Shown: piece after piece, positions 7,102-58,142 of the stretch
How positions within the stretch are numbered: position 1 is the first letter of the stretch
Layout: every line of letters starts with the position of its first letter
Source of the DNA: Shigella phage ESh24
Reading direction: 5' to 3' (one strand)
Sequence record: ON528734
DNA: 64,000 bases
The notes under the pieces: model-generated
Databases searched by the model: none
What the model was told of the DNA's origin: nothing
The model's input: the letters and a program-made list of their open reading frames with translations, nothing else
Position numbers and translations under genes: made by a program

Positions 7102-10100
7102 CTATTTTAACCTGTGTTGGATTTTCAGGGTCTCTTGGATTTCCTATATTATCTTTTAGACGTTTATTAACTAAATCTCTAAATTGCGCAAATGTTGTTC
7201 CAGATGCATCAAATAAAGGACTCATTAATTTACGTCGTTCAGATGGCAATTGACCTTGAAATATTGAATTATTATTTTCAGCATTATAGTCATCAGGAAG
7301 AGGATATTTTACACCAGCCATTGGGCCAGGCTCATAAATTGCTTCGCCTGTTACCGAATCATGCTCAATTTCACCAGTTGGAGTCAATTTAGCTACTCTA
7401 TCAGCATATTCAGTAGGCAATCCAGAATCCCATTTATAGTTTTTGTATTTATTAATTATAGTCTCTGTATGTTTAAGAGTTAAACCAACATTAATAAACA
7501 TTGTTAAAAGGGTAATTGCTATAAATCCAAATCCTACTGGATGAACAAAACGAATAACGTCAGATTTCCAGCGGGAAGAAGGTAAATTGGATTTAATTTT
7601 CATTACATAATATGATCTACTTCTATTAATATAGTCTATATTATTTTGAAGCAAGTCCTTTCCTTTAACCCCACGAATAATTTCGCCTTCAAAACTAGGA
7701 AGTCTTTCTGCTTTAACTTCTTGACCAGCAATTAATCGTCCCAAAAGATTATGAATAGTTACGGTCCATTGCAATTTACCATTAGAATAGCTTCTTTCTA
7801 TATAAGTAACATTACATCTTCCTGTAGCTGTATAAATCGTTTGTCCTACTAAGTCTTCAGTCAAAGAATCAGATTGAACGATTATATCATATTCAGTACC
7901 AGCCCCAGATTCAATTTCAATTTCAACCTCTTCATTATAAAGAACTTTAAAAAGAAATTTGTATGATGCTTCAATTCCTTTAGTAGAATAAAAATCATAG
8001 CTACGCGATTCGAAAAATCTTGCAACAGCATCACGTTTGTCAGCATTTAAATAAATGTTTCTTTTATATATCTCTGACCACAAATATTCCCACGCATGCT
8101 CTTCTCGTGGATATTTGTTACGAATTAAATTTCGTAAATTATTATACTGAGTTCCATATCCATCAGAAAGATACTGAATATATGCTTCGCAAAATGCCTC
8201 AAAATTCGAATCCTGTAACAAATAAGAATCAGGCATCATTGTGCCAATCAATGGTCTTAAATCAGGATCAGCTAATCCATGCTCTTCTTCCGGGGACCAA
8301 GGAGTTTCACGCTCTTGGTTTTGTAAAAATGCTTTTAAAAATATTCCAGTTGGCTTCCAAATTATTTCAACCGTGTCTCTCACCCGATAGTTAAAATCAT
8401 AGTAAGAAATTATTTCACCAGAAGACTTATAAAAAAGCATCCCAGATGCGTATTTTTTAAATCCCGTGAATTTAACATTTGGCATTACTATAGTACAATC
8501 GCCATCATCCCAGTATTCATGAACTAATCTATCTGGTGATGTTTCCGGAATATTTTCTATAACTTTAGTGTATTTTAAATCAGCATAAACTACTACAGCT
8601 CTATCAGAGTTGTTTATCCAACAGCGTGTGTTAGATTTTTTAGACCAGTTAAAGAATGGTTCTGCATAGTATTTCATCGGCTGAGGCGTAAAAGTTTCCC
8701 AATCAGATTTTTCATCTGCTATAAATGCCATCATATGATAATGCTTATCAGCTAACCATTCACGAGGAAATTCATATTTGACAGCACCAATTAACTGATA
8801 TTTTGCTGCAGTTTCAGGGTCATTAACAACATTATCACTTAAAAATTTAAAATTACTCGAAGACAGAGAAACTAATTTACCGTCAGTTGACATATTCGCA
8901 TATCCGGGTTGAATACGTCTTCTTTCTTCTTCGGTATTACCAAAAACTCTTTTCCACGTTTTTGTGTCATGATTTAAAACATATATTCCTTTATCAGCAG
9001 AATCAATTATTTTTGAAGTTCTCGGATTGGCATTTAATGTTTCAACTTCACCAATAATAAGAGCAAAAACTTTATCACCGATAGAATCCATTTTATAGCA
9101 TACTGCTTTAGGATTTCCGGTTATAGTCATTGTATCGGGCTCAAAAAGTCTTTCCGAATATGTTGGAGATAATGGATCAGAATCTATAGGTGCATTACTC
9201 GTTTTTATGTATCTAACTTTGTCTCTGGCGACAACGTAAATGTAATCATCGGTGCAAGTAATAGCTTCTGCAATGCGGTATACATTAGCTGGTAAAGTCG
9301 CATAAGTGGCAAAAATTTCTACATCAAATCCTAGATGCAATTGGTCACCAAGTTTAGCGAATGTTATATCCTGTGAACTAAATCTGACATCATCAGCTGA
9401 CCATCTAACATCAGTAGATTTACGGCCGTAGAAAATCTTGTCGTATCCTAGAACGTATGTTGTGTTTGCAGATTGGTAATATACTGTCTTAGATAAAGGA
9501 TATCCTACACGGTCATTGAAGAGCTTTACAGCTTTCCAAGTTTGTCCTTTATCATTGGATACTTTAACTACAGGTTGATAGCGCTCAAAAAGATATAGAA
9601 TTCCTTCTGATTCCATCAAATAAACACGGTTAATATCCTTACATACTTGCTGAATAGAACCTTGTATTTCATGATACTCATTTTCACCAATAATAAAATT
9701 ACTTATTGATGAAACATCAACATATGATGGGCTGAATTGGAACGATTCATTCATCAATGCAGCCATTATAGTGTCATTATTAAAATTGACATAATTAGAA
9801 TTGTTAAGAGTAAATTTTTCCTGAATGAATTTATTGGCTAATTGCATTTCAATCATGTTTTGAAATGTGTAAGCATTCGTAGCAAAAGTTTCAAACTCTT
9901 CTGTATAAACCCAATCAGATTGCTCAAAATCTTGTGCAGCTGTAGCTACTCTAATGATGTATGATGTTAGTGGATCAGCATCATCAAAAAAGAAACTATT
10001 ATTTGCTGTATATCCTAAATTAATCCAACGATATTGATCGCTCGGGAGATTTTCCCCCGAGTCTGTTTTTGTCTCAGCGATTTCTACAAAATAGTAGAAA

Positions 10101-20116: not shown

Positions 20117-20189
20117 TGGGAATTAGCCAAGTTGGTAAGGCATAGCACTTTGACTGCTAGATGCAAAGGTTCGAGTCCTTTATTCCCAG
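20117..20189 (+). tRNA. tRNA-Gln (anticodon TTG)
   Basis: Cloverleaf: acceptor tgggaat/attccca, anticodon loop ctTTGac, T-arm ggttcgagtcc; no encoded CCA. Confidence 0.85.
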
Positions 20190-20190
20190 C

Positions 20191-20277
20191 GCGAGAATGG
20201 TCAAATTGGTAAAGGCACAGCACTTAAAATGCTGCGGAATGATTTCCTTGTGGGTTCGAGTCCCACTTCTCGCACCA
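20191..20277 (+). tRNA. tRNA-Leu (anticodon TAA), type II
   Basis: Acceptor gcgagaa/ttctcgc, anticodon loop ctTAAaa, long variable arm, 3' CCA encoded. Confidence 0.85.
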
Positions 20278-20282
20278 AATTT

Positions 20283-20356
<74 letters not shown>

Positions 20357-20402
20357 ATTTATGACTCGTCGTGAGACGCTCAGTTCTTTATTAGGGACTG
20401 AT

Positions 20403-21011
20403 ATGCATTTTTATCTTTATAAAATAACAAATAAAATTAATAATAAAATTTATATTGGTGTGCATTCTACCGAAAATTTAGATGATGGATATATGGGTTC
20501 TGGTAAATTATTAAAAAGAGCCCAAGATAAATATGGTATAGAAAATTTTTCTAAAGAAATATTAGAGTATTTTGACGATAAAGAATCTATGCTTGAAGCC
20601 GAGAAAAATATTGTCACAGAAGAGTTTTTAAATAGACCAGATGTGTATAATTTAAAACTTGGAGGTGAAGGTGGATGGGATCATATAAATAATTATCCTA
20701 TGACAGATCAGCAACGCGAATTAATTTCATTGGGTGTTAAAAAGGCACATTCTAATGGAAAATTAAAAGGATGGTCTTCAAATGGATTAATGAAGAATGG
20801 CTTTGCTGGTAAAACTCATTCTCAAGAAGCTAAACGTAAAATAGCAAAAGCAAACGAAGCAAAAGTTTCTGTGGATGAAAGAAAAAGAAGAATAGAAATT
20901 TCTAAATTATATGATTTTTCTAAACGTGGCGAATTGTCTAAATATGCTAAGCATATTGGCGTAAGTCATACTCAAGCAAAAAGAATTCTAAATCAAATTA
21001 ACAATATATAA
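20403..21011 (+). CDS. segB: GIY-YIG homing endonuclease in the tRNA cluster
   Basis: GIY-YIG motif FYLYKITNKINNKIYIGVHSTENLDDGYMGSGKLLKRA; start ATG 20403 (RBS aggga), alternative ATG 20361. Confidence 0.8.
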   Translation: MHFYLYKITNKINNKIYIGVHSTENLDDGYMGSGKLLKRAQDKYGIENFSKEILEYFDDKESMLEAEKNIVTEEFLNRPDVYNLKLGGEGGWDHINNYPMTDQQRELISLGVKKAHSNGKLKGWSSNGLMKNGFAGKTHSQEAKRKIAKANEAKVSVDERKRRIEISKLYDFSKRGELSKYAKHIGVSHTQAKRILNQINNI

Positions 21012-21017
21012 ATATTT

Positions 21018-21107
21018 GGAGGCGTGGCAGAGTGGTTTAATGCACCGGTCTTGAAAATCGGCAGTCGCTCCGGCGACTCATAGGTTCAAATCCTATCGCC
21101 TCCGCCA
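21018..21107 (+). tRNA. tRNA-Ser (anticodon TGA), type II
   Basis: Acceptor ggaggcg/cgcctcc, anticodon loop cTTGAaa, long variable arm, CCA encoded. Confidence 0.85.
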
Positions 21108-21112
21108 GTTTT

Positions 21113-21188
21113 GCTGATTTAGCTTAGTAGGTAGAGCAACTCACTTGTAATGAGAAGGTCGGCGGTTCGATTCCGTCAATCAGCACCA
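21113..21188 (+). tRNA. tRNA-Thr (anticodon TGT)
   Basis: Acceptor gctgatt/aatcagc, anticodon loop cTTGTaa, T-arm ggttcgattcc, CCA encoded. Confidence 0.85.
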
Positions 21189-21189
21189 A

Positions 21190-21264
21190 GGCCCTGTAGC
21201 TGGAAGGTTCAAGCAAGCGACTCATAATCGCCAGATGGTGGTTCAATTCCACCCAGGGCCACCA
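21190..21264 (+). tRNA. tRNA with anticodon CAT (Ile2 or Met; Ile by position in T4)
   Basis: Acceptor ggccctg/cagggcc, anticodon loop ctCATaa, T-arm ggttcaattcc, CCA encoded. Confidence 0.8.
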
Positions 21265-21276
21265 AATTATGAATTA

Positions 21277-21363
21277 GGGGAGTTATCCCGTAGAGGTAGC
21301 GGTGTGGACTGTAAATCCATTGTCATTGCGACTCGGGTGGTTCGACTCCATCACTCCCCACCA
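21277..21363 (+). tRNA. tRNA-Tyr (anticodon GTA), type II
   Basis: Acceptor ggggagt/actcccc, anticodon stem-loop gtgga-ctGTAaa-tccat, long variable arm, T-arm ggtgg-ttcgact-ccatc, CCA encoded. Confidence 0.75.
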
Positions 21364-21367
21364 ATTT

Positions 21368-21442
21368 GGATGTGTAGCTCAATGGCAGAGCGATCGCCTG
21401 TTAAGCGATTGGTTATAGGTTCGAATCCTATCACGTCCGCCA
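21368..21442 (+). tRNA. tRNA-Asn (anticodon GTT)
   Basis: Acceptor ggatgtg/cacgtcc, anticodon stem-loop atcgc-ctGTTaa-gcgat, T-arm ggttcgaatcc, CCA encoded. Confidence 0.8.
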
Positions 21443-21446
21443 AATA

Positions 21447-21522
21447 CGAGGCATAGCTCAGAAGGAAGAGCAAGGACCTTCTAAGTCCTAGGTCGTAGGT
21501 TCGATCCCTACTGCCTCGACCA
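21447..21522 (+). tRNA. tRNA-Arg (anticodon TCT)
   Basis: Acceptor cgaggca/tgcctcg, anticodon stem-loop aggac-cTTCTaa-gtcct, T-arm ggttcgatccc, CCA encoded. Confidence 0.85.
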
Positions 21523-21538
21523 ATTAAGTGAGGAAAAT

Positions 21539-21889
21539 ATGAAAGGTAATGTTTATTTAGTAGTTCACGATTTAACATTTTATTTTAATCACAATGACAC
21601 TGTTATTTCTGAACGTGTAATTAATTTGCTTTATCAACACGCGGATTATGTTTATGTCGAAAACGAATATGGTCATTGGCAATTTCTCAAAAATCGTTCA
21701 TTTGGCTTAGATGGTTACGAATACTTTGAACGTAAAGACCTTTTAGATAAAATTCCGTTATCTACGCAATATCAAAATCACGAGTCTTTATATAAATGCC
21801 GTCCAATTCGAAATGCTGAATCTGCGTATGAAGCAATTGATTTATGGCGTAAACGTCGTGAACAGATTGATGCTTTAAAAGAATATTAA
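21539..21889 (+). CDS. hypothetical protein
   Basis: 116-aa ORF with strong RBS (gtgaggaaaat ATG) immediately after tRNA-Arg. Confidence 0.65.
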   Translation: MKGNVYLVVHDLTFYFNHNDTVISERVINLLYQHADYVYVENEYGHWQFLKNRSFGLDGYEYFERKDLLDKIPLSTQYQNHESLYKCRPIRNAESAYEAIDLWRKRREQIDALKEY

Positions 21890-21894
21890 GAAAC

Positions 21895-22230
21895 CGGGTC
21901 GCTACCGGTAAGTCGTCGGACTGATGTTCCCTGGGTAAGGAATCGTGTTAATAAATCTTTATGATTTGTTGATGCCCTCTTACATCACAGCAGAAACGGC
22001 GCACCGAATTATCGATTCGAGGAAATATCTTTGCCGTAAGCCGAGTAGCGTTTTTGACGGAACGTTCGGATATGGTCGAGATATGGCCTTTTAAAAAAAT
22101 ATTGAGTAGCGTCAACTGCTTAATAACCGGGTTCGAATCCCGGCGTTTCGTACAAACACTTGCCTTAGCAGGTGGAACCCCGACAAGGTTGCCGCAAGGC
22201 TTAGCCCCGACCGAAAGGTTGGGGCTTTTT
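21895..22230 (+). ncRNA. candidate stable structured RNA(s), possibly the counterpart of T4 species 1/2 (rnaC/rnaD) RNAs
   Basis: Visibly more GC-rich than flanks; tRNA-like T-arm aaccgggttcgaatcccgg; ends in terminator gccccgacc-gaaa-ggttggggc + TTTTT (22204-22230); no convincing ORF. Confidence 0.4.
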
Positions 22231-35463: not shown

Positions 35464-35496
35464 GTTTACAAGTTGGCAAGGTTATGGTATAGTAAT
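35464..35496 (+). promoter_or_regulatory. early-type promoter (GTTTACA … TGGTATAGTAAT)
   Basis: -35/-10-like elements upstream of a 34-codon leader ORF (35522-35626) and gene 35626. Confidence 0.45.
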
Positions 35497-35625
35497 CTTG
35501 TCAACTGTTAAGGAGAAGAGAATGAAAGTTTTGTTTGTTGTGTATGTAATGATTCAATATAATCACCCAATGTTTACTTATAATCTGGTGAACAACATTA
35601 TTGATATTATTCAAAGGAGTATGTA

Positions 35626-35811
35626 ATGACAAGTGAGCAGGCTTTTAAATTAAGAGAATTAATTGAGACGTATAGTAAAGCTGTTCATACATCAACAATT
35701 ATTGATGAATCAGCTTTCTCCGGACATGCCAACAAGATTAAATACAAAACTCTTATGGAAGAAGCTAAAGTAAATCTTGATTCTTATATTGAAACTTTAA
35801 TTGGTGAATAA
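35626..35811 (+). CDS. small acidic helical protein (tandem family)
   Basis: 61 aa, MTSEQAFKLRELIETYSKAV…. Confidence 0.5.
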   Translation: MTSEQAFKLRELIETYSKAVHTSTIIDESAFSGHANKIKYKTLMEEAKVNLDSYIETLIGE

Positions 35812-35812
35812 C

Positions 35813-36079
35813 ATGGGCTTTCCTAAATTAGAAGTAGGTGATTTGGTCTTAACAAAATTATGGAATGATGTTCAATCAGTAGAAATCTGTCAATATCGTG
35901 GAGCAACAGGTAATTTGATGTACACGATTTATAATCCAGAAATTTTATTAGAGTGTCATTTGGAACGCTTTATAAAAGACACCGATAGTATGCCGTATAG
36001 TGTATCGATTGTACGTAAATCTGATACAAAGGAATACTCTAAAATTTTAGAACAAATCAGCGCAAATAAAAAGGATTAA
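35813..36079 (+). CDS. hypothetical protein
   Basis: 88 aa from ATG 35813; the six-frame start at 35801 is TTG. Confidence 0.5.
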   Translation: MGFPKLEVGDLVLTKLWNDVQSVEICQYRGATGNLMYTIYNPEILLECHLERFIKDTDSMPYSVSIVRKSDTKEYSKILEQISANKKD

Positions 36080-36080
36080 T

Positions 36081-36614
36081 ATGAAACGATTAGTATTAGA
36101 AGTTAGTCCACTTTTTGGTGAATTGGCTATAGAAAAAGTAAATAATATGTATCGTTTGACACAAGAAGACGATATGATGTATTTTACACCTAGTGAAATT
36201 ATTCATTTAACCCAAATTGAATATCCTTATACTGATAAAATAATAAGCATCAATGATGAGCACAAAATTCATTTTTATTCTTCATGCCCAGGATTTAATA
36301 TTAAAAGTGAGTCAATGTGTTTATCAGTTATCCATTGGGATAGTTTTATAGCCAAGATTAAATATTTTTATTATTCTAATGAAAGAAAACATAGTTTAAA
36401 ATGGCTCAAAAATTGTAATGCTATTATTACTAACGCTTGCAATCAGAATGATGAAACTCTTTTAAATGTATCAAAATGTTATGAAGAGGGAGATGTCTTA
36501 ACTATTCGTCAAATTGACGATTTTCGATCGCATATTGTCACATTTACCAAAGACGAAGCTATTGCACTAAAAGCTTATCTTGATTCTGTTATTCCAACTA
36601 TGATTTCAAAGTGA
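36081..36614 (+). CDS. hypothetical protein, paralogue A
   Basis: 177 aa; C-terminus …AIALKAYLDSVIPTMISK parallels the next gene. Confidence 0.6.
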   Translation: MKRLVLEVSPLFGELAIEKVNNMYRLTQEDDMMYFTPSEIIHLTQIEYPYTDKIISINDEHKIHFYSSCPGFNIKSESMCLSVIHWDSFIAKIKYFYYSNERKHSLKWLKNCNAIITNACNQNDETLLNVSKCYEEGDVLTIRQIDDFRSHIVTFTKDEAIALKAYLDSVIPTMISK

Positions 36615-36620
36615 GGAAAT

Positions 36621-37142
36621 ATGTTTATTTCAAGTGAAAGTGGTTTAATTCGTGCTGAATTTAAAAATGACATCTTTCTTATTCAAGGAGATGATATTAT
36701 TAAAATGAGTTATGACGAAATCAAGAAAATTTGTCATGCTCTTGAAAGTCATGGAAAAGTGAACGCTGTTATTGATATTGGCGATTTATGGGTGACACTT
36801 TATGAAGTATCCGAAGGATTTAACATTGAAGATGAAAATAACATTTTAGCTATTGATAAAAGAAGTGATTTGTTTGATGTATTAAAAGTTTATGAACAGT
36901 CAAATGGCGGAAGAAAAGCTGTATTGATTTATCAAAAACCGCATTCATGTGGAACTGCTTCAATCATTTCAAATATTGAAGATGAAACTGATACTTATAT
37001 GTGTGTTTTAAAAGCTGGTGGTGACCGTCATCCGGATTTTATTTCTATTCGTCAAAACAATGGAGAAATTTCATTATCAAAATCAGAAGCTGAAGCGATG
37101 ATTAAGTATTTAACAACCGTTACGCCTTCAATGAAAGGATAA
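36621..37142 (+). CDS. hypothetical protein, paralogue B
   Basis: 173 aa; C-terminus …AEAMIKYLTTVTPSMKG; RBS gtgaggaaat. Confidence 0.6.
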   Translation: MFISSESGLIRAEFKNDIFLIQGDDIIKMSYDEIKKICHALESHGKVNAVIDIGDLWVTLYEVSEGFNIEDENNILAIDKRSDLFDVLKVYEQSNGGRKAVLIYQKPHSCGTASIISNIEDETDTYMCVLKAGGDRHPDFISIRQNNGEISLSKSEAEAMIKYLTTVTPSMKG

Positions 37143-37144
37143 TT

Positions 37145-37606
37145 ATGATTATTAATGAAAACTCTTGGCACTATAAATTATTCAAATTGTTTAACGATGA
37201 ATGGCAACGACCTAAGACACTATGTGCATACTTTTGGTCTATTGTTATCCCTACATTTTTCGTTTCTATTTTTGGGTGTACTATACTCGTAGGGCTAACA
37301 ATTATTTGTGCAGAAAGCCTACAACGTTGGCTTATTTTCGGTAGTTTATGGACTCTTCTTCCATTAGCATTTATACTTGCGCTTTTGGTTGTTTTACTTA
37401 TTATCGGTTCATTTGTTATTCCTGCACATTTGCGTGAAAAATATAAAGATTATAAATGGAAAAAGGATTATGCTTTACACGTAGAAAATATTGATAGGGC
37501 GTATAAAGGTTTACCTCCTATTCAACCCAAGAAATCTATTATCGTCGAATTTTTAAAAGCTCGTAAAGCTAAAGTATGTCCTGTTATTGAATATAAGGCT
37601 GAATGA
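37145..37606 (+). CDS. integral membrane protein (~4 TM helices)
   Basis: 153 aa, strongly hydrophobic segments; RBS aaaggataatt. Confidence 0.6.
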   Translation: MIINENSWHYKLFKLFNDEWQRPKTLCAYFWSIVIPTFFVSIFGCTILVGLTIICAESLQRWLIFGSLWTLLPLAFILALLVVLLIIGSFVIPAHLREKYKDYKWKKDYALHVENIDRAYKGLPPIQPKKSIIVEFLKARKAKVCPVIEYKAE

Positions 37607-38616
37607 TGAAAACAGTAATGAAAAGCTATTTTGGTAGTCATCTTTATGGAACTTCTACCCCAGAATCTGATGTAGATTTTAAAGAAATTTTTGTTCCTCC
37701 TGCTCGCGATATTCTTATCGGAAATGTTAAAGAGCATATGAGCAAAAACACTAACAACACATCATCTAAAAACACTAAAGATGATATTGACCATGAACTA
37801 TACAGTCTTAAGTATTTCTTTAAATTAGCAGCAGATGGTGAAACCGTAGCATTGGATATGCTTCACACTCCACCTGAACTAGTGGTTAAATCTGATTTGC
37901 CTGATGTGTGGAAGTTTATTCAAGACAACCGTTCTCGTTTTTATACGACTAACATGAAATCCTATTTAGGATATGTTCGCAAGCAAGCTTCTAAATACGG
38001 TGTCAAGGGTTCTCGTTTGGCTGCATTACGCGATGTATTGAAAGTAGTTAATCAAATCCCTGAGCAATGGGTTGATTACCAAGAAGATGGTTCTATTAAG
38101 CAGCGTCGTACTAAAGTTGAAGATATTAAGCATCGTCTTCCAGAAAACGAATTCTGTGAATGGGTGTTCCATAATCATGAGAAAACAGGTCCACAAACGT
38201 TCTATACTGTATTGGGTCGTAAATATCAGACAACTCTTTCTCTTATTGAGCTTAAGCAGTCACTGAACAAATTAGATGCTGAATATGGTGAACGTGCTCG
38301 TAAGGCCGAAGCCAATGAAGGTATTGACTGGAAAGCACTAAGTCATGCTTGTCGTGGTGGACTTCAACTATTGGAAATTTACAAAACTGGCGACTTAGTT
38401 TATCCACTCAAAGATGCTCCTTTTATTCTCGACGTGAAGTTGGGTAAGCATCCATTTAAAACGGTTCAAGAGTTTTTGGAAGATGTGGTCGATCAAGTAG
38501 AAGCAGCATCTACTGAAGCTTCTAAGAACGGTATGCAACAAAAAGTAGACATGAGTTTCTGGGATGACTTCCTTGAGAAGGTCTATCTTGAAAACCACCG
38601 AAATTATTATAAATGA
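37603..38616 (+). CDS. nucleotidyltransferase-fold protein
   Basis: 337 aa; N-terminal NTase signature FGSHLYGTSTPESDVDF (GS…DxD); followed by a terminator. Confidence 0.6.
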   Translation: MMKTVMKSYFGSHLYGTSTPESDVDFKEIFVPPARDILIGNVKEHMSKNTNNTSSKNTKDDIDHELYSLKYFFKLAADGETVALDMLHTPPELVVKSDLPDVWKFIQDNRSRFYTTNMKSYLGYVRKQASKYGVKGSRLAALRDVLKVVNQIPEQWVDYQEDGSIKQRRTKVEDIKHRLPENEFCEWVFHNHEKTGPQTFYTVLGRKYQTTLSLIELKQSLNKLDAEYGERARKAEANEGIDWKALSHACRGGLQLLEIYKTGDLVYPLKDAPFILDVKLGKHPFKTVQEFLEDVVDQVEAASTEASKNGMQQKVDMSFWDDFLEKVYLENHRNYYK

Positions 38617-38618
38617 TA

Positions 38619-38642
38619 GGGAGCCTTCGGGCTCCCTTTTTT
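38619..38642 (+). terminator. intrinsic terminator
   Basis: gggagcc-ttcg-ggctccc hairpin followed by TTTTTT. Confidence 0.75.
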
Positions 38643-38666
38643 ATTTCAAAAATTTTTCACAAAGTT

Positions 38667-38697
38667 GTTTACAAGCATAAAGCTTTATGGTACTATA
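38667..38697 (+). promoter_or_regulatory. early-type promoter (GTTTACA … TGGTACTAT) with conserved leader
   Basis: aatttttcacaaagttgtttaca upstream block; leader tatacaactatcaact…ggagaataaaATG near-identical to that of the 23109 gene. Confidence 0.5.
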
Positions 38698-38730
38698 CAA
38701 CTATCAACTGATACGGATTTGGAGAATAAA

Positions 38731-39699
38731 ATGAAAACTGTAACTATCAATAAGGGTATCTACTTTGGCAAAGAAATCTCTGGAACTTTTGAACTCTTAG
38801 GTGAATGGTTCCCAGATAATGCTCCAGTAGATGCACAAGGAGATGGTAAAGTTTTTGTTGAAATTGACGGTAAACGTCGCGGTGTTTGGGTTTACAAATC
38901 AGACATTTCATATGATGGTGTAAAAGTTGAAGAAGTTAAAGAATCGTATGAAGATATGAAAACCCGCATTAATAAAAGATTTAATGTTATGGGAATGATG
39001 ACGAATGGTATTATTAACGGAAACATTCGTTCATTAATTATCTCTGGTGCGGCGGGTATTGGTAAAACGTATTCTTTAGATAAAGCTTTAAATAAAGCAA
39101 ATGATATTGGATACATTGAATATAAAAGCATTAACGGTAAAATCTCTGGTATCGGTCTTTATGAACAGCTTTGGAATAATCGTGAAGAGAATTCTGTCCT
39201 TTTGATTGATGATGTGGATGTTTTCTCTGATATGGACATTCTTAATCTTCTGAAAGCTGCTCTGGACACCGGAGAGACCCGTAAAGTCTGCTGGAGCACC
39301 GCATCTTCTTACTTAGAAGAAAAAGGCATTGAGCGTGAGTTTGAATTTAAAGGAACGATTGTTTTTATCACAAACGTTGACATTGACCGCGAATTAGACC
39401 GTGGTACTAAACTTGCTCCACATTTACAAGCATTAGTGTCCCGCTCAGTTTATTTGGATTTGGGTGTTCACACTAATGAAGAAATTATGGTCAGGGTTGA
39501 AGATGTTATTCTTTCAACTGACATGATGCAAAAGCGCGGTCTTTCTGATGAAGAAACTTATAAAGCATTATCATGGATGAAAGTCAATGTTAATCGTTTA
39601 CGCAATGTTTCACTGCGTACTGCACTTTATCTTGCTGACTTTATTATGACCGACAAAAATGGTTGGGAAGAAATTGCTGAGGTTACTCTTCTGAAATAA
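38731..39699 (+). CDS. AAA-type P-loop ATPase
   Basis: 322 aa from ATG 38731 (RBS ggagaataaa); Walker A GAAGIGKT, Walker B-like VLLIDDVD. Confidence 0.65.
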   Translation: MKTVTINKGIYFGKEISGTFELLGEWFPDNAPVDAQGDGKVFVEIDGKRRGVWVYKSDISYDGVKVEEVKESYEDMKTRINKRFNVMGMMTNGIINGNIRSLIISGAAGIGKTYSLDKALNKANDIGYIEYKSINGKISGIGLYEQLWNNREENSVLLIDDVDVFSDMDILNLLKAALDTGETRKVCWSTASSYLEEKGIEREFEFKGTIVFITNVDIDRELDRGTKLAPHLQALVSRSVYLDLGVHTNEEIMVRVEDVILSTDMMQKRGLSDEETYKALSWMKVNVNRLRNVSLRTALYLADFIMTDKNGWEEIAEVTLLK

Positions 39700-40105: not shown

Positions 40106-40136
40106 GTTTACAAGACAGTTCCTCTGTGGTACTATA
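40106..40136 (+). promoter_or_regulatory. early-type promoter (GTTTACA … TGGTACTAT) with conserved leader
   Basis: Same cassette as at 23036 and 38667. Confidence 0.5.
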
Positions 40137-40163: not shown

Positions 40164-40691
40164 ATGAATGCTAAAGATATTTTCAACTTGGTAAACTACA
40201 ATGATGGTAAATTTAAATCTGAAGCTCAAAGCAAGTTTTTTAATGATGTCTCAATCGGTGGTGAAATCACGGTTGATGGAGGACAAGTTTATAAATCTCG
40301 TTGGAATTGGATCGTTATTATCGATGAGATTGGTATTGTAGAAATTTACAAGAATACGAATAAAAATCGTACATTACACTGGTCTCGTGATACTAACGAA
40401 CAGTACAAAAAGGATAAAGCATCTAAATTATCTCGTGTAACTCAAGAAGATATTGAGTTCATCAAAAAGGATATTTTGATGTATGATAACTTAATTGCTG
40501 AAGAGCAAGCTGTTATTGATAAATTTGACGAGATTAAAGCTTCTCGTGAAATTCCTGATTTTATGAAAGAATCAGTAAATGAACGATACACTCTCATTTC
40601 AGAGCGTATTGAAACTTACAAAAAGCAAAGAGCTGAACGCCAGAACACTCTTCGGAAATTTGAAGAACGGTTAAAGACGGTACTCGCATAA
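40164..40691 (+). CDS. hypothetical protein
   Basis: 175 aa from ATG 40164 (RBS ggaggaacag). Confidence 0.6.
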   Translation: MNAKDIFNLVNYNDGKFKSEAQSKFFNDVSIGGEITVDGGQVYKSRWNWIVIIDEIGIVEIYKNTNKNRTLHWSRDTNEQYKKDKASKLSRVTQEDIEFIKKDILMYDNLIAEEQAVIDKFDEIKASREIPDFMKESVNERYTLISERIETYKKQRAERQNTLRKFEERLKTVLA

Positions 40692-55000: not shown

Positions 55001-56016
55001 AAATTTTAAATTTAGGTGATTGGCATTTAGGCGTTAAAGCTGATGATGAGTGGATTCGCGGTATTCAAATTGATGGAATTAAGCAAGCGATAGAATATTC
55101 TAAGAAAAATGGAATTACGGTATGGATTCAATACGGTGATATTTTTGATGTGCGAAAAGCGATCACGCATAAAACTATGGAGTTTGCCCGTGAAATAGTT
55201 CAAATGCTTGATGGTGCTGGAATCACATTACATACTATTGTAGGAAATCACGATCTCCACTACAAAAATGTAATGCATCCAAATGCCTCTACTGAGCTTT
55301 TGGCTAAATATCCTAATGTTAAAGTATATGATAAGCCTACTACAGTAGATTTTGACGGATGTTTGATTGATTTAATTCCTTGGATGTGTGAAGAAAATAC
55401 TGGTGAAATTCTTGAACACATCAAAACTTCATCTGCTTCTTTTTGTGTTGGTCACTGGGAGCTGAATGGATTTTATTTTTATAAAGGAATGAAATCTCAC
55501 GGTCTTGAACCTGATTTCCTTAAGACTTATAAAGAAGTGTGGTCTGGTCACTTCCATACTATCTCTGAGGCTGCTAACGTCAGATATATTGGGACACCAT
55601 GGACACTAACTGCAGGTGACGAGAATGACCCTCGTGGGTTCTGGATGTTTGATACAGAAACAGAACGAATGGAATTTATTCCAAACAATACTACCTGGCA
55701 TCGTAGAATTCATTATCCATTTAAAGGAAAAATTGACTATAAAGATTTTACAAATCTATCAGTACGTGTTATAGTAACTGAAGTAGACAAAAATCTGACG
55801 AAGTTCGAATCTGAACTAGAAAAAGTTGTGCATTCATTACGAGTTGTGTCAAAAATTGATAACTCTGTCGAGTCAGATGAAAGTGAAGAAGTTGAAGTTC
55901 AATCTCTTCAGACGTTGATGGAAGAATACATCAATGCAATTCCAGACATCACTGATTCTGACCGTGAAGCACTTATTCAATATGCAAATCAGCTATATGT
56001 AGAGGCAACACAATGA
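54997..56016 (+). CDS. 47: recombination endonuclease subunit (Mre11-like)
   Basis: 339 aa; phosphoesterase motifs DWHLG, GDIFD, GNHD; same length as T4 gp47. Confidence 0.92.
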   Translation: MKILNLGDWHLGVKADDEWIRGIQIDGIKQAIEYSKKNGITVWIQYGDIFDVRKAITHKTMEFAREIVQMLDGAGITLHTIVGNHDLHYKNVMHPNASTELLAKYPNVKVYDKPTTVDFDGCLIDLIPWMCEENTGEILEHIKTSSASFCVGHWELNGFYFYKGMKSHGLEPDFLKTYKEVWSGHFHTISEAANVRYIGTPWTLTAGDENDPRGFWMFDTETERMEFIPNNTTWHRRIHYPFKGKIDYKDFTNLSVRVIVTEVDKNLTKFESELEKVVHSLRVVSKIDNSVESDESEEVEVQSLQTLMEEYINAIPDITDSDREALIQYANQLYVEATQ

Positions 56017-56276
56017 CTTTTGATGAATTTAAAAATGTTATGATGAGTCAGCATTTTGAATGCGAAGTAAAAGATGATATTGGTCATAAAGAAATTATTG
56101 AATATTGGTTTGAACCGCTAGAGGTTGAAGATAATTGTATTAAAAAGGTTACAGTCTGCACTGACTGGGCTGTATCTTTTAACTTCAACATTTTAGATAA
56201 TGACACACCTAAATCATTACGAGATATGGCTGTATCTTGTATTAAGGATGCATACTGTGAAGTTTTCGACATTTGA
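56013..56276 (+). CDS. hypothetical protein
   Basis: 87-aa ORF, ATGA overlap with gene 47. Confidence 0.5.
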   Translation: MTFDEFKNVMMSQHFECEVKDDIGHKEIIEYWFEPLEVEDNCIKKVTVCTDWAVSFNFNILDNDTPKSLRDMAVSCIKDAYCEVFDI

Positions 56277-56463
56277 CGTTAACGATGAATTCATAGCAAA
56301 TATTGATTATACCGAAGAAGATTCTAGATATGTTGGAATAATTTATATTACATCAAAAACAGCACAAGGTGTTGTTTGCATGGCTGAATTTGATGAATAC
56401 TTTTTAGATTATGATGATATGATAGAATGGTCTAAAAGATACATTAAAAGGAATCTTTTGTGA
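56248..56463 (+). CDS. hypothetical protein
   Basis: ~71 aa; start uncertain (ATG 56248 or GTG 56257). Confidence 0.4.
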   Translation: MHTVKFSTFDVNDEFIANIDYTEEDSRYVGIIYITSKTAQGVVCMAEFDEYFLDYDDMIEWSKRYIKRNLL

Positions 56464-58142
56464 AGAATTTTAAACTAAACCGAGTTAGGTATCAAAATAT
56501 AATGTCAGTAGGTGGAAATCCTATTGACATTCAATTAGATAAGGTTCAAAAAACTCTTATTACTGGACGAAATGGCGGTGGTAAGTCTACTATGTTAGAA
56601 GCCATCACATTTGGGCTTTTTGGCAAGCCATTTCGTGATGTAAAGAAAGGTCAATTAATAAACAGCACAAATAAGAAAGAACTTTTAGTTGAACTGTGGA
56701 TGGAATATGATGAGAAAAAGTACTATATCAAAAGAGGACAAAAACCAAACGTTTTCGAAATCACCGTTAACGGTACACGTCTTAATGAATCTGCCAGCAG
56801 TAAAGATTTCCAAGCAGAATTTGAACAGCTTATCGGAATGTCATATGCCAGTTTCAAGCAGATTGTTGTCCTTGGTACAGCAGGGTATACCCCTTTCATG
56901 GGTTTGTCGACCCCTGCACGAAGAAAGCTTGTGGAAGACCTGCTTGAGGTAGGAACATTAGCTGAAATGGATAAGCTTAATAAAGCACTAATACGTGAAT
57001 TAAATTCACAAAACCAAGTGCTTGATGTTAAAAAAGATAGTATTATCCAACAAATTAAAATATATAATGATAATGTTGAACGTCAGAAAAAATTAACGGG
57101 TGACAACCTTACTCGTCTTCAAAATATGTATGATGATTTGGCAAAAGAAGCTAGAACGCTAAAATCGGAAATAGAAGAAGCTAATGAAAGATTAGTTAAT
57201 ATTGTTTTGGATGAAGACCCGACTGATGCATTTAATAAAATCGGTCAAGAAGCATTTTTAATTAAATCAAAAATTGACTCGTATAATAAAGTCATTAACA
57301 TGTATCACGAAGGTGGATTATGTCCAACCTGCTTGTCACAATTAAGTTCCGGTGATAAAGTTGTTTCTAAAATTAAAGATAAAGTTTCTGAATGTACGCA
57401 TTCATTTGAACAGCTTTCAACACACCGTGATAATTTAAAAGTTCTTGTTGACGAATACCGAGATAATATTAAAACCCAGCAGTCGTTGGCAAATGATATT
57501 CGCAATAAAAAGCAATCTCTAATCACGACGGTAGATAAAGCTAAAAAAGTTAAAGCAGCTATAGAAAAAGCATCTTCTGAGTTTATTGACCATGCTGATG
57601 AAATAGCACTGCTTCAAGAAGAACTTGATAAAATTGTTAAGACAAAAACTAATTTAGTAATGGAAAAATACCACCGAGGAATTTTGACTGATATGCTCAA
57701 AGATTCTGGTATTAAAGGTGCTATTATTAAAAAGTACATTCCATTATTTAATAAGCAGATTAACCATTATCTTAAAATAATGGAAGCGGATTATGTGTTT
57801 ACATTAGATGAAGAATTTAATGAGACAATTAAATCCCGTGGTCGTGAAGATTTTAGTTATGCTTCATTTAGTGAAGGCGAAAAAGCGCGAATTGATATTG
57901 CTCTTTTATTTACTTGGCGTGATATTGCTTCTATTGTATCTGGTGTTAGTATTAGTACATTAATACTCGATGAAGTGTTTGATGGGTCATTTGATGCCGA
58001 AGGTATTAAAGGTGTAGCTAATATTATAAATTCAATGAAAAACACTAATGTTTTTATAATTTCGCATAAAGACCATGACCCGCAAGAATATGGTCAGCAT
58101 CTTCAAATGAAGAAAGTTGGTCGATTTACTGTAATGGTTTAA
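56460..58142 (+). CDS. 46: recombination endonuclease ATPase subunit (Rad50/SbcC-like)
   Basis: 560 aa; GTG start; Walker A GRNGGGKST, central coiled coil with CPTC zinc hook, signature SEGE and Walker B ILDEVFD. Confidence 0.92.
   Translation: MKNFKLNRVRYQNIMSVGGNPIDIQLDKVQKTLITGRNGGGKSTMLEAITFGLFGKPFRDVKKGQLINSTNKKELLVELWMEYDEKKYYIKRGQKPNVFEITVNGTRLNESASSKDFQAEFEQLIGMSYASFKQIVVLGTAGYTPFMGLSTPARRKLVEDLLEVGTLAEMDKLNKALIRELNSQNQVLDVKKDSIIQQIKIYNDNVERQKKLTGDNLTRLQNMYDDLAKEARTLKSEIEEANERLVNIVLDEDPTDAFNKIGQEAFLIKSKIDSYNKVINMYHEGGLCPTCLSQLSSGDKVVSKIKDKVSECTHSFEQLSTHRDNLKVLVDEYRDNIKTQQSLANDIRNKKQSLITTVDKAKKVKAAIEKASSEFIDHADEIALLQEELDKIVKTKTNLVMEKYHRGILTDMLKDSGIKGAIIKKYIPLFNKQINHYLKIMEADYVFTLDEEFNETIKSRGREDFSYASFSEGEKARIDIALLFTWRDIASIVSGVSISTLILDEVFDGSFDAEGIKGVANIINSMKNTNVFIISHKDHDPQEYGQHLQMKKVGRFTVMV

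What the first reader, a model, noticed from the sequence alone, without database searches (positions are those of the whole stretch)
37603..38616. Nucleotidyltransferase-fold protein as an independent transcription unit
The N-terminus contains a canonical minimal NTase signature, FGSHLYGTSTPESDVDF (GS, then ~10 residues, then DxD), in a 337-aa protein that ends at a strong terminator (38619-38642). The family cannot be assigned by eye. Enzymes of this fold in phage include nucleotide-modifying and signalling-related proteins, so it may interact with nucleotide-based host immunity or modify nucleic acid ends.
Basis: partly seen in the sequence, partly recalled or inferred. Interest (0 to 1): 0.55.

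Follow-up and report, generated by a model that had tools for sequence, protein, structure and literature searches.

The report
T4 nrdC.11 RlaP-type RNA nucleotidyltransferase gene
This is the phage T4 gene nrdC.11, a known member of the RlaP family of enzymes that add one or two nucleotides to broken RNA ends, so the family assignment is not new, although the phage enzyme itself has never been tested.

Summary
The ORF (37603-38616, +, 337 aa), the GS...DxD motif (aa 10-26) and the terminator (38618-38645) are all present as described. The window is a T4-like phage, and the protein is 98% identical to T4 NrdC.11, which RefSeq already calls 'nucleotidyltransferase'. [quoted passage not shown] A December 2025 preprint names T4 NrdC.11 as an RlaP of unknown function. 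The same preprint shows that two bacterial RlaPs add 1-2 nucleotides to RNA 3'-OH ends.

The gene is not an independent transcription unit. Its ATG overlaps the stop codon of the upstream gene, and the nearest promoter-like site lies about 2.1 kb upstream. It is the last gene of a tightly packed early operon.

G11, S12, D23, D25 and D63 are invariant in 49 diverse homologues. The AlphaFold model (pLDDT 88) has a Pol-beta NTase core, a helical C-terminal domain, and a clade-specific insert of about 100 residues.

In 80 bacterial and archaeal loci, homologues of this clade sit next to RtcB, Pnkp/Hen1, HD phosphohydrolases and a canonical RlaP.

Best reading: an early phage RNA 3'-end extender that acts with T4 Pnkp and RNA ligase in tRNA repair. 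There is no evidence for a role in nucleotide signalling. Interest is low to moderate.

The parts
37603..38616 (+). nrdC.11 orthologue: RlaP-clade Pol-beta nucleotidyltransferase. 337 aa, or 336 aa from the ATG at 37606; the stop codon is included in the coordinates.
   Evidence: ORF. 98% identical to T4 NrdC.11. PF10127 at 44.6 bits. PHROG 388 at E = 1.5e-136. Homologues in 1,517 phage records.
37603..38010 (+). N-terminal NTase core (aa 1-136). It holds the GS motif (aa 11-12, nt 37633-37638), the DxD motif (aa 23-25, nt 37669-37677) and the third carboxylate D63 (nt 37789-37791). It also holds a conserved KNTxDDxD loop (aa 56-63) and the helix carrying Y124/Q128/K131/Y132.
38011..38310 (+). 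Clade-specific insert (about aa 137-236): helix 138-150, a five-strand beta unit 155-209, and helix 214-236. Canonical RlaP of about 254 aa lacks it.
   Evidence: Comparison of secondary structure in the two models. hhalign bridges the two flanking motifs only when aa 137-236 are removed. The insert carries clade-conserved residues: P180, E183, Y201, G205, Y228, G229, R231.
38311..38613 (+). C-terminal helical domain (aa 237-337). It carries the invariant K244-x3-H248-x2-R251 motif, P268, K279, and a long terminal helix (aa 317-336).
38618..38645 (+). Rho-independent terminator that ends the operon.
   Evidence: Annotated at the same place in phage fPS-2.
37145..37606 (+). Upstream 153-aa membrane-protein ORF. 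Its TGA stop overlaps the NTase ATG, giving translational coupling. An AAGG Shine-Dalgarno sequence lies at 37594-37597.
   Evidence: PHROG 944 'membrane protein'.
35465..35493 (+). Nearest upstream T4 early-type promoter (TTTACA-17-TATAGT with an extended TG). It probably starts the seven-ORF transcription unit that ends with the NTase gene.
   Evidence: It shares the consensus GTTTACAAG..TGGTA..TCAACT with the sites at 38668-38696 and 40107-40135. An early promoter is annotated at the equivalent place in fPS-2.

Best explanation
The gene encodes the T4 NrdC.11 orthologue, a divergent RlaP-clade Pol-beta nucleotidyltransferase. It is made early in infection as the last cistron of a polycistronic early transcript.

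Proposed mechanism:
- G11/S12 and the three carboxylates D23, D25 and D63 bind two divalent metal ions and an NTP.
- The enzyme transfers one or a few NMPs, without a template, to the 3'-OH of a broken RNA. The most likely substrate is the 5' half of a tRNA cut in the anticodon loop.
- In the infected cell it would act between end-healing and sealing. T4 Pnkp first converts the 2',3'-cyclic phosphate to a 3'-OH. T4 Rnl1 or Rnl2 then seals the break.
- This would replace nucleotides trimmed by nucleases such as the wobble-excising anticodon nuclease RloC.

Shown here: the gene's identity, its family, the intact and invariant catalytic residues, the fold, the operon structure, and the linkage of this clade to RNA-repair genes in cellular genomes.

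Inferred: that the substrate is RNA and that 1-2 nt are added (by analogy with PfRlaP and PaRlaP), the cooperation with Pnkp and Rnl1, and the anti-RloC role.
For: Identity: 98% to T4 NrdC.11, with synteny to the T4 nrdC.10-nrdC.11 region.

Family: PF10127 above threshold. PMC12776372 places T4 NrdC.11 in SSN cluster 5 of PF10127. It shows that PfRlaP and PaRlaP add 1-2 NMP to RNA 3'-OH but not to DNA or protein, prefer Mn2+, and prefer the 5' half of a nicked tRNA.

Active site: G11, S12, D23, D25 and D63 are invariant in 49 sequences of 34-55% identity. D63 pairs with the invariant third Asp of canonical RlaP.

Context of this clade elsewhere. Within 5 kb in 80 bacterial and archaeal loci:
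- a canonical RlaP in 21 loci (immediately downstream on the same strand in 19)
- RtcB in 9
- Pnkp with its ligase domain in 7
- Hen1 in 7
- an HD protein in 6
- a Ro60-like vWA protein in 4
- an operon of order hen1-pnkp-NrdC.11-type-rlaP in L071 and L080.

In phage-like contigs: an RNA ligase 1.2 kb upstream (L012), RtcB 4.3 kb downstream (L006), and an HD gene overlapping the 3' end (L007, L010, L011, L012). A CCA-adding enzyme lies two genes upstream in Rheinheimera phage Barba31A.

[quoted passage not shown] RlaP was predicted to restore such nucleotides before ligation (PMC7824862).
Against: - No experiment exists on NrdC.11 or on any member of its clade.
- The characterised RlaPs belong to a different SSN cluster (1a), and only the first ~90 residues align significantly with canonical RlaP (hhalign E = 3e-4, probability 40%). 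The C-terminal half alone gives no significant match.
- The clade has an insert of about 100 residues of unknown role and a different C-terminal motif (K-x3-H-x2-R rather than K-x-Y-x-Y-x2-R). Substrate or product could therefore differ.
- Bacteria often keep this type and a canonical RlaP side by side. That argues the two are not redundant.
- In T4-like genomes the gene is about 80 kb from pseT and rnlA, so there is no local linkage.
- The nrdC.11-mobD.3 block can be lost from viable T4 (PMC9825161). There is therefore no phenotype on laboratory hosts.
- I could not measure the 3D distances between D23, D25 and D63, because model coordinates are not exposed by the tools.
Confidence: 0.6

Rival explanations
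1. tRNA 3'-end (CCA) maintenance. The enzyme would rebuild or extend the acceptor ends of phage or host tRNAs, for example phage tRNAs transcribed without CCA or tRNAs trimmed by host exonucleases, rather than repair anticodon-loop breaks.
For: The homologue in Rheinheimera phage Barba31A lies two genes downstream of a CCA-adding enzyme on the same strand. HD phosphohydrolase genes overlap the 3' end of homologues in four phage-like places. From established knowledge, bacterial CCA-adding enzymes carry an HD domain. The window has a cluster of 10 predicted tRNA genes at 20117-22153.
Against: There is no match to the CCA-adding family PF01743. The characterised RlaPs use all four NTPs with little specificity and favour the internal break of a nicked tRNA over its acceptor end (PMC12776372). 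The most specific neighbours in cellular genomes are ligase systems (RtcB, Pnkp/Hen1), which seal internal breaks.
Confidence: 0.1
2. Interference with nucleotide- or oligonucleotide-based immunity. The NTase would make a signal mimic or decoy. One example is an oligodeoxyadenylate like the one made by the Hailong regulator HalB, which would keep a host effector switched off. Another is modification of a signalling nucleotide.
Against: Identity to HalB is only 14-16% and covers only the generic NTase core (TM-score 0.26). There is no PADLOC match and no CD-NTase or cGAS-like match. Neighbours of the clade are RNA-repair genes, not defence or signalling genes. PfRlaP needs an RNA 3'-OH acceptor and does not use DNA or protein.
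Confidence: 0.06
3. Protein or small-molecule nucleotidylylation in the manner of MNT antitoxins or kanamycin NTase. One example is AMPylation of a host HEPN-type RNase toxin to neutralise it.
Against: These are fold-level matches at 4-12% identity. The match to PF01909 is below threshold (E = 0.07). PfRlaP did not label E. coli proteins. No HEPN or toxin gene recurs next to the clade.
Confidence: 0.07
4. Same chemistry but a different biological target. The enzyme would add untemplated 3' tails to host or phage mRNAs or small RNAs, to mark them for decay or to stabilise them, as part of T4's early takeover of host RNA metabolism. It would not be a repair enzyme.
For: The gene is early and dispensable. 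PfRlaP labels many E. coli RNAs, including rRNA-sized species. There is no physical linkage to pseT or rnlA in T4.
Against: RlaP stops after 1-2 nucleotides. In independent lineages the clade is embedded in ligase and end-healing operons.
Confidence: 0.12

Closest known systems
T4 NrdC.11 (NP_049709.1, T4p095; UniProt name 'uncharacterized 38.9 kDa protein in nrdC-mobD intergenic region')
   Same: 98% identical over 335 residues. Same position upstream of nrdC.10, same terminator. Same RefSeq product name, 'nucleotidyltransferase'.
   Different: T4 has the HNH homing endonuclease gene mobD immediately upstream. This window has a 153-aa membrane-protein ORF there instead. T4 has Asn at position 61 where this protein has Asp; D63 is kept in both.
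RlaP family (Pfam PF10127), biochemically characterised as PfRlaP and PaRlaP (PMC12776372)
   Same: GS motif and three catalytic Asp residues. An N-terminal NTase domain followed by a helical domain that ends in a long helix. Linkage of the clade to RtcB and Pnkp/Hen1 operons.
   Different: A different SSN cluster: 5 rather than 1a. Only the NTase core aligns at sequence level. An extra alpha/beta insert of about 100 residues (aa 137-236). No N-terminal helix. The motif is K-x3-H-x2-R instead of K-x-Y-x-Y-x2-R. There is no adjacent ligase gene in T4-like genomes. Activity has not been tested.
Hailong HalB (PDB 9dbh, 9dbj)
   Different: 14-16% identity and TM-score 0.26. HalB is 217 aa, is primed by a tyrosine, makes poly-dA, and is paired with a membrane channel gene. 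None of these features was seen here.
Kanamycin nucleotidyltransferase and the MNT-HEPN type NTases
   Different: No sequence-level relationship. Their substrates are small molecules or proteins. Their gene neighbourhoods differ.

Membership tests
RlaP (Pfam PF10127) | Sequence match to the family profile above the curated threshold | tested here: met
   44.6 bits against a cut-off of 23, E = 1.9e-11. The match covers only aa 7-135 and profile positions 23-142 of 249.
RlaP (Pfam PF10127) | hG[GS] motif plus three conserved catalytic aspartates | tested here: met
   G11, S12, D23, D25 and D63 are invariant in 49 diverse homologues. D63 aligns with the invariant Asp of canonical RlaP and lies in a beta strand of the model. 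The spatial distances between the three Asp residues could not be measured.
RlaP (Pfam PF10127) | N-terminal NTase domain, C-terminal helical domain, and a final helix that packs back on the NTase domain (PfRlaP crystal structure) | tested here: inconclusive
   The order of secondary-structure elements matches a canonical RlaP model, apart from a ~100-residue insert and a missing N-terminal helix. Shorter phage NTases align over their full length in BFVD, with TM-score normalised to target of 0.55-0.72. The C-terminal half alone gives no significant profile match. The PfRlaP coordinates are not in the PDB copy.
RlaP (Pfam PF10127) | Gene neighbourhood with RNA ligase or RNA end-healing genes | tested here: not met
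   This row concerns the window only. No ligase or Pnkp gene flanks the gene, and in T4 pseT and rnlA are about 80 kb away. The feature is met for the clade elsewhere. RtcB, Pnkp or Hen1 lies within 5 kb in 14 of 80 cellular loci, and a canonical RlaP in 21 of 80. RNA ligase or RtcB is also nearby in two phage contigs.
RlaP (Pfam PF10127) | Adds 1-2 NMP to RNA 3'-OH; does not use DNA or protein; prefers Mn2+ | not testable with these tools
   This needs biochemistry. It has been shown only for PfRlaP and PaRlaP (PMC12776372).
CD-NTase / cGAS-like signalling NTases | Sequence or fold match to CD-NTases, and a partner effector gene | tested here: not met
   No PADLOC match. No CD-NTase among the PDB or BFVD fold matches. 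No effector-like neighbour.
Class II CCA-adding enzyme (PF01743) | Match to the PolyA_pol head domain | tested here: not met
   No Pfam match at E <= 0.01.
Hailong HalB-type NTase | Close structural match, a priming tyrosine, and an adjacent halA channel gene | tested here: not met

The most novel reading that the evidence does not exclude
The NrdC.11-type enzymes are a functionally distinct branch of RlaP. Their conserved insert of about 100 residues and their altered C-terminal motif would give a substrate or nucleotide specificity that canonical RlaP lacks. One possibility is recognition of the broken anticodon stem-loop. This would explain why bacteria keep both types side by side in Pnkp/Hen1 and RtcB operons. 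In T4 this branch would be the missing third enzyme of the classic Pnkp-Rnl1 tRNA repair pathway, letting the phage reverse nucleotide-excising anticodon nucleases such as RloC, which were thought to defeat phage repair.
Probability: 0.25. Interest if true: 0.6.

Novelty: already known. Interest (0 to 1): 0.3.

Why it matters
T4's Pnkp-Rnl1 pathway is the founding example of RNA repair. RloC-type nucleases that remove a nucleotide were proposed in 2008 to defeat it. If NrdC.11 restores the lost nucleotide, the textbook pathway gains a third step, and a phage counter-defence against trimming tRNases becomes testable in the best-studied phage.

The idea is already in print in general form (Burroughs and Aravind 2016, cited in PMC12776372 and PMC7824862; Carruthers et al. 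2025), so the finding offers little that is new. What this analysis adds:
- The operon structure of the gene.
- The definition of the clade-specific insert.
- The observation that this clade is paired with a canonical RlaP in tandem (19 of 80 loci) and embedded in RNA-repair operons in bacteria.

Tried and rejected
- Sequence and profile searches of the PDB with the protein, with the clade profile (A1) and with the canonical RlaP profile (A3) found nothing meaningful. The PfRlaP structure is evidently not in the copy.
- NCBIfam and PADLOC gave no match.
- Profile-profile comparison of the C-terminal half alone against canonical RlaP was not significant. Removing aa 137-236 lengthened the alignment without raising the score. 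A second comparison with deeper but less diverse alignments was weaker still.
- I looked for a promoter directly upstream of the gene, both sigma-70/early type and MotA-box middle type. None lies within about 2 kb, so the 'independent unit' reading was rejected.
- I considered a functional pairing with the downstream nrdC.10-like AAA ATPase and rejected it. A terminator and its own promoter separate the two genes. No AAA gene recurs next to homologues outside T4-like phages.
- The neighbourhoods in Klebsiella phage phiKp_32 and Vibrio phage phi-ST2 were uninformative.
- The Burroughs and Aravind 2016 paper is not held in the library.

Full report
**What is there**

The + strand carries an ORF at 37603-38616 that encodes 337 aa.

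Two bases after the stop codon comes a hairpin at 38618-38637. It has an 8-bp stem with 6 G-C pairs and a UUCG loop, followed by TTTTTTATTT. As RNA it folds at -17.7 kcal/mol, z = -4.4 against shuffles.

The sequence-level observation is therefore correct.

**Identity**

The window is a T4-like (Tequatrovirus) genome.
- The gene matches 750 phage records at DNA level, with the best at 97.7% identity.
- The protein matches 1,517 phage records.
- The protein is 98% identical to T4 NrdC.11, which RefSeq annotates as 'nucleotidyltransferase' at T4 55435-56445.
- Many GenBank records call it 'thioredoxin'. That is a mis-transfer from the neighbouring nrdC gene name.
- PHROG 388 ('nucleotidyltransferase') matches at E = 1.5e-136.
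- Pfam PF10127 (RlaP, 'RNA repair pathway DNA polymerase beta family') matches at 44.6 bits against a threshold of 23. The match covers residues 7-135 only.
- NCBIfam and PADLOC give no match.

**Transcription**

The claim of an independent transcription unit fails, for these reasons.
- The ATG at 37603 overlaps the TGA of the upstream 153-aa membrane-protein ORF (ATGA), and an AAGG ribosome-binding site lies inside that ORF.
- From about 35498 to 38616, seven ORFs overlap or are at most 6 nt apart.
- The only sites with the T4 early-promoter consensus (GTTTACAAG...TGGTAnnnT...TCAACT) are at 35465-35493, 38668-38696 and 40107-40135.
- No MotA-box middle-promoter pattern lies on the + strand between 35064 and 47479.

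The NTase gene is therefore the last cistron of an early operon of about 3.1 kb that ends at the terminator. The next gene, an nrdC.10-like AAA ATPase, has its own early promoter. Phage fPS-2 carries the same annotated promoter-operon-terminator layout.

**Family and active site**

An exhaustive search of 1.84 billion cluster representatives found 3,436 clusters at E <= 0.001 and 826 at E <= 1e-30. Most listed hits match over the full length and are 310-350 aa.

In an alignment of 49 members at 34-55% identity to the query, the invariant residues are G11, S12, G16, S22, D23, D25, N57, D63, Y124, Y132, K244, H248, R251, P268 and K279.

D85 might have been taken for the third carboxylate, but other residues replace it in some members. 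D63 is invariant and sits in an h-D-h context. T4 itself has Asn at position 61 but keeps D63. Profile-profile alignment pairs D63 with the invariant third Asp of canonical RlaP.

The requested 'second catalytic acidic residue' therefore exists. I could not measure 3D distances because the tools do not expose model coordinates.

**Structure**

AlphaFold2 with a 69-sequence alignment gives mean pLDDT 88.3 and pTM 0.73.

There is no close solved relative.
- Foldseek on the PDB gives only weak NTase matches.
- In BFVD, shorter phage NTases (234-285 aa) align across their whole length, with TM-score normalised to target of 0.55-0.72.

I also modelled a canonical RlaP of 261 aa (pLDDT 92.8). Its secondary-structure elements correspond one-to-one with those of NrdC.11, with two exceptions. 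NrdC.11 lacks the N-terminal helix. It carries an extra block (helix 138-150, five strands in 155-209, helix 214-236) between the Y124 helix and the K244-R251 helix.

At sequence level only the NTase core aligns significantly (hhalign E = 3e-4). Deleting residues 137-236 lets the alignment run on through Y124/Y157 and K244-R251/K177-R184, but the score does not rise.

I conclude that this is a divergent RlaP clade with a conserved insert. That agrees with its separate SSN cluster (5 rather than 1a) in PMC12776372.

**What the family does**

PMC12776372 (bioRxiv, December 2025) reports the following for PfRlaP and PaRlaP.
- They add one or two NMPs to RNA 3'-OH ends, from any NTP and also from dATP.
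- They do not act on DNA or protein.
- They prefer Mn2+.
- They prefer the 5' half of a nicked tRNA.
- They partly restore aminoacylation of a tRNA that lacks one anticodon-loop nucleotide, when used before ligation.

The paper marks T4 NrdC.11 as an 'RlaP of unknown function'.

PMC7824862 states the earlier prediction that RlaP restores nucleotides lost to enzymes such as RloC before ligation. PMC2610378 shows that RloC excises the wobble nucleotide and argues that this could defeat phage tRNA repair. The nrdC.11-mobD.3 block is lost in viable genome-reduced T4 (PMC9825161), so the gene is dispensable on laboratory hosts.

**Independent context evidence for this clade**

T4-like genomes give no local clue. 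pseT and rnlA are about 80 kb away.

I therefore collected 80 bacterial and archaeal loci that encode full-length homologues at 33-54% identity. I clustered all ORFs within 5 kb and identified the recurrent clusters with Pfam. The recurrent neighbours are:

| Neighbour within 5 kb | Loci (of 80) |
|---|---|
| Canonical full-length RlaP (274 bits) | 21, of which 19 immediately downstream on the same strand |
| RtcB | 9 |
| Pnkp with kinase, Metallophos and PNKP_ligase domains | 7 |
| Hen1 | 7 |
| HD phosphohydrolase | 6 |
| Ro60-like vWA | 4 |

In all, 37 of 80 loci have at least one of these neighbours, and 14 of 80 have a ligase system. In L071 and L080 the gene order is hen1-pnkp-NrdC.11-type-rlaP.

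Phage-like metagenomic contigs show similar neighbours.
- RtcB lies 4.3 kb downstream in L006.
- An RNA ligase lies 1.2 kb upstream in L012.
- A Metallophos gene lies two genes upstream in L008.
- An HD gene overlaps the 3' end of the homologue in L007, L010, L011 and L012.

In Rheinheimera phage Barba31A the homologue follows a CCA-adding enzyme.

These neighbours are all RNA end-healing, sealing or protecting functions. None is a signalling or defence effector.

**Most likely mechanism**

NrdC.11 is probably an early-expressed, template-independent RNA 3'-end nucleotidyltransferase. The proposed sequence of events is:
1. A host nuclease cuts and trims a tRNA.
2. T4 Pnkp, or an HD or Metallophos enzyme in other lineages, generates a 3'-OH.
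3. NrdC.11 adds one or two nucleotides.
4. Rnl1 or Rnl2 seals the break.

My confidence in each step:

| Claim | Confidence |
|---|---|
| It is an active Pol-beta NTase | about 0.85 |
| It acts on RNA 3' ends in a repair context | about 0.6 |
| It specifically counters RloC-type trimming nucleases | about 0.3 |

Rivals are CCA-end maintenance, decoy or signal synthesis like HalB, MNT-like protein AMPylation, and RNA tailing for decay. Each is listed with its evidence. None has support beyond fold-level resemblance or single neighbourhoods.

**Novelty and score**

The gene, its family assignment and the repair hypothesis are already published, so the finding is 'already known'.

- The operon structure of the gene.
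- The delineation of the clade-specific insert.
- The frequent tandem pairing of this clade with a canonical RlaP inside RNA-repair operons. That pairing argues the two types are not redundant.

Interest is 0.3. The most novel reading not excluded is that this is a distinct-specificity branch that forms the third enzyme of T4 tRNA repair and defeats RloC. I give that a probability of about 0.25 and an interest of about 0.6 if true.

Noticed in passing
L017, L022, L032, L034, L035, L044, L045, L066, L068, L069, L071, L079, L080, L083, L084, L089 and others (about 8900-9800 in most of these loci): In bacterial genomes the NrdC.11-type gene is followed within a few tens of bases, on the same strand, by a canonical ~254-aa RlaP gene (19 of 80 loci). 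The two diverged RlaP paralogues form a conserved tandem pair, sometimes in the operon order hen1-pnkp-NrdC.11-type-rlaP.
   Followed up: partly
L007 8939-9445; L010 1913-2371; L011 2479-2910; L012 8948-9454: In phage-like contigs an HD-domain phosphohydrolase gene lies immediately downstream of the NrdC.11-type gene, overlapping its 3' end in three of the four places. This recalls the NTase-plus-HD arrangement of bacterial CCA-adding enzymes and suggests a heal-then-extend pair.
   Followed up: partly
window 20117-22153 (+): A cluster of 10 predicted tRNA genes: Gln, Leu, Gly, Ser, Thr, Met(CAT), Tyr, Asn, Arg, and a 97-nt 'tRNA-Phe(aaa)' call that looks doubtful.
   Followed up: no
window 36081-36614 and 36621-37142 (+): Two tandem paralogues in the same early operon. 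Each has the T4_y05I_N and T4_y05I_C domains of putative transcription factors.
   Followed up: no
window 37145-37606 (+), compared with T4 56429-57208: T4 has the HNH homing endonuclease gene mobD directly upstream of nrdC.11, overlapping it. This phage has a 153-aa multi-pass membrane-protein ORF (PHROG 944) there instead.
   Followed up: partly
window 38668-38696 and 40107-40135 (+), also 35465-35493: Three near-identical early-promoter-plus-leader modules (GTTTACAAG...TGGTACTATACAACTATCAACT...GGA...ATG). They precede the nrdC.10-like gene, the ORF starting at 40164, and the operon that contains the NTase gene.
   Followed up: partly
window 38725-39699 (+): The nrdC.10-like protein (324 aa from the ATG at 38725) has only sub-threshold matches to AAA_14, AAA_22 and nSTAND3 P-loop domains. 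It belongs to PHROG 1250, of unknown function. No conserved linkage to the NTase was seen outside T4-like phages.
   Followed up: partly
GenBank records under hits H1, H4, H8, H13, H16 and others: Many deposited T4-like genomes label this NTase, and the whole nrdC.x block, as 'thioredoxin'. One record calls it 'HNH homing endonuclease'. These are annotation errors propagated from neighbouring gene names.
   Followed up: no
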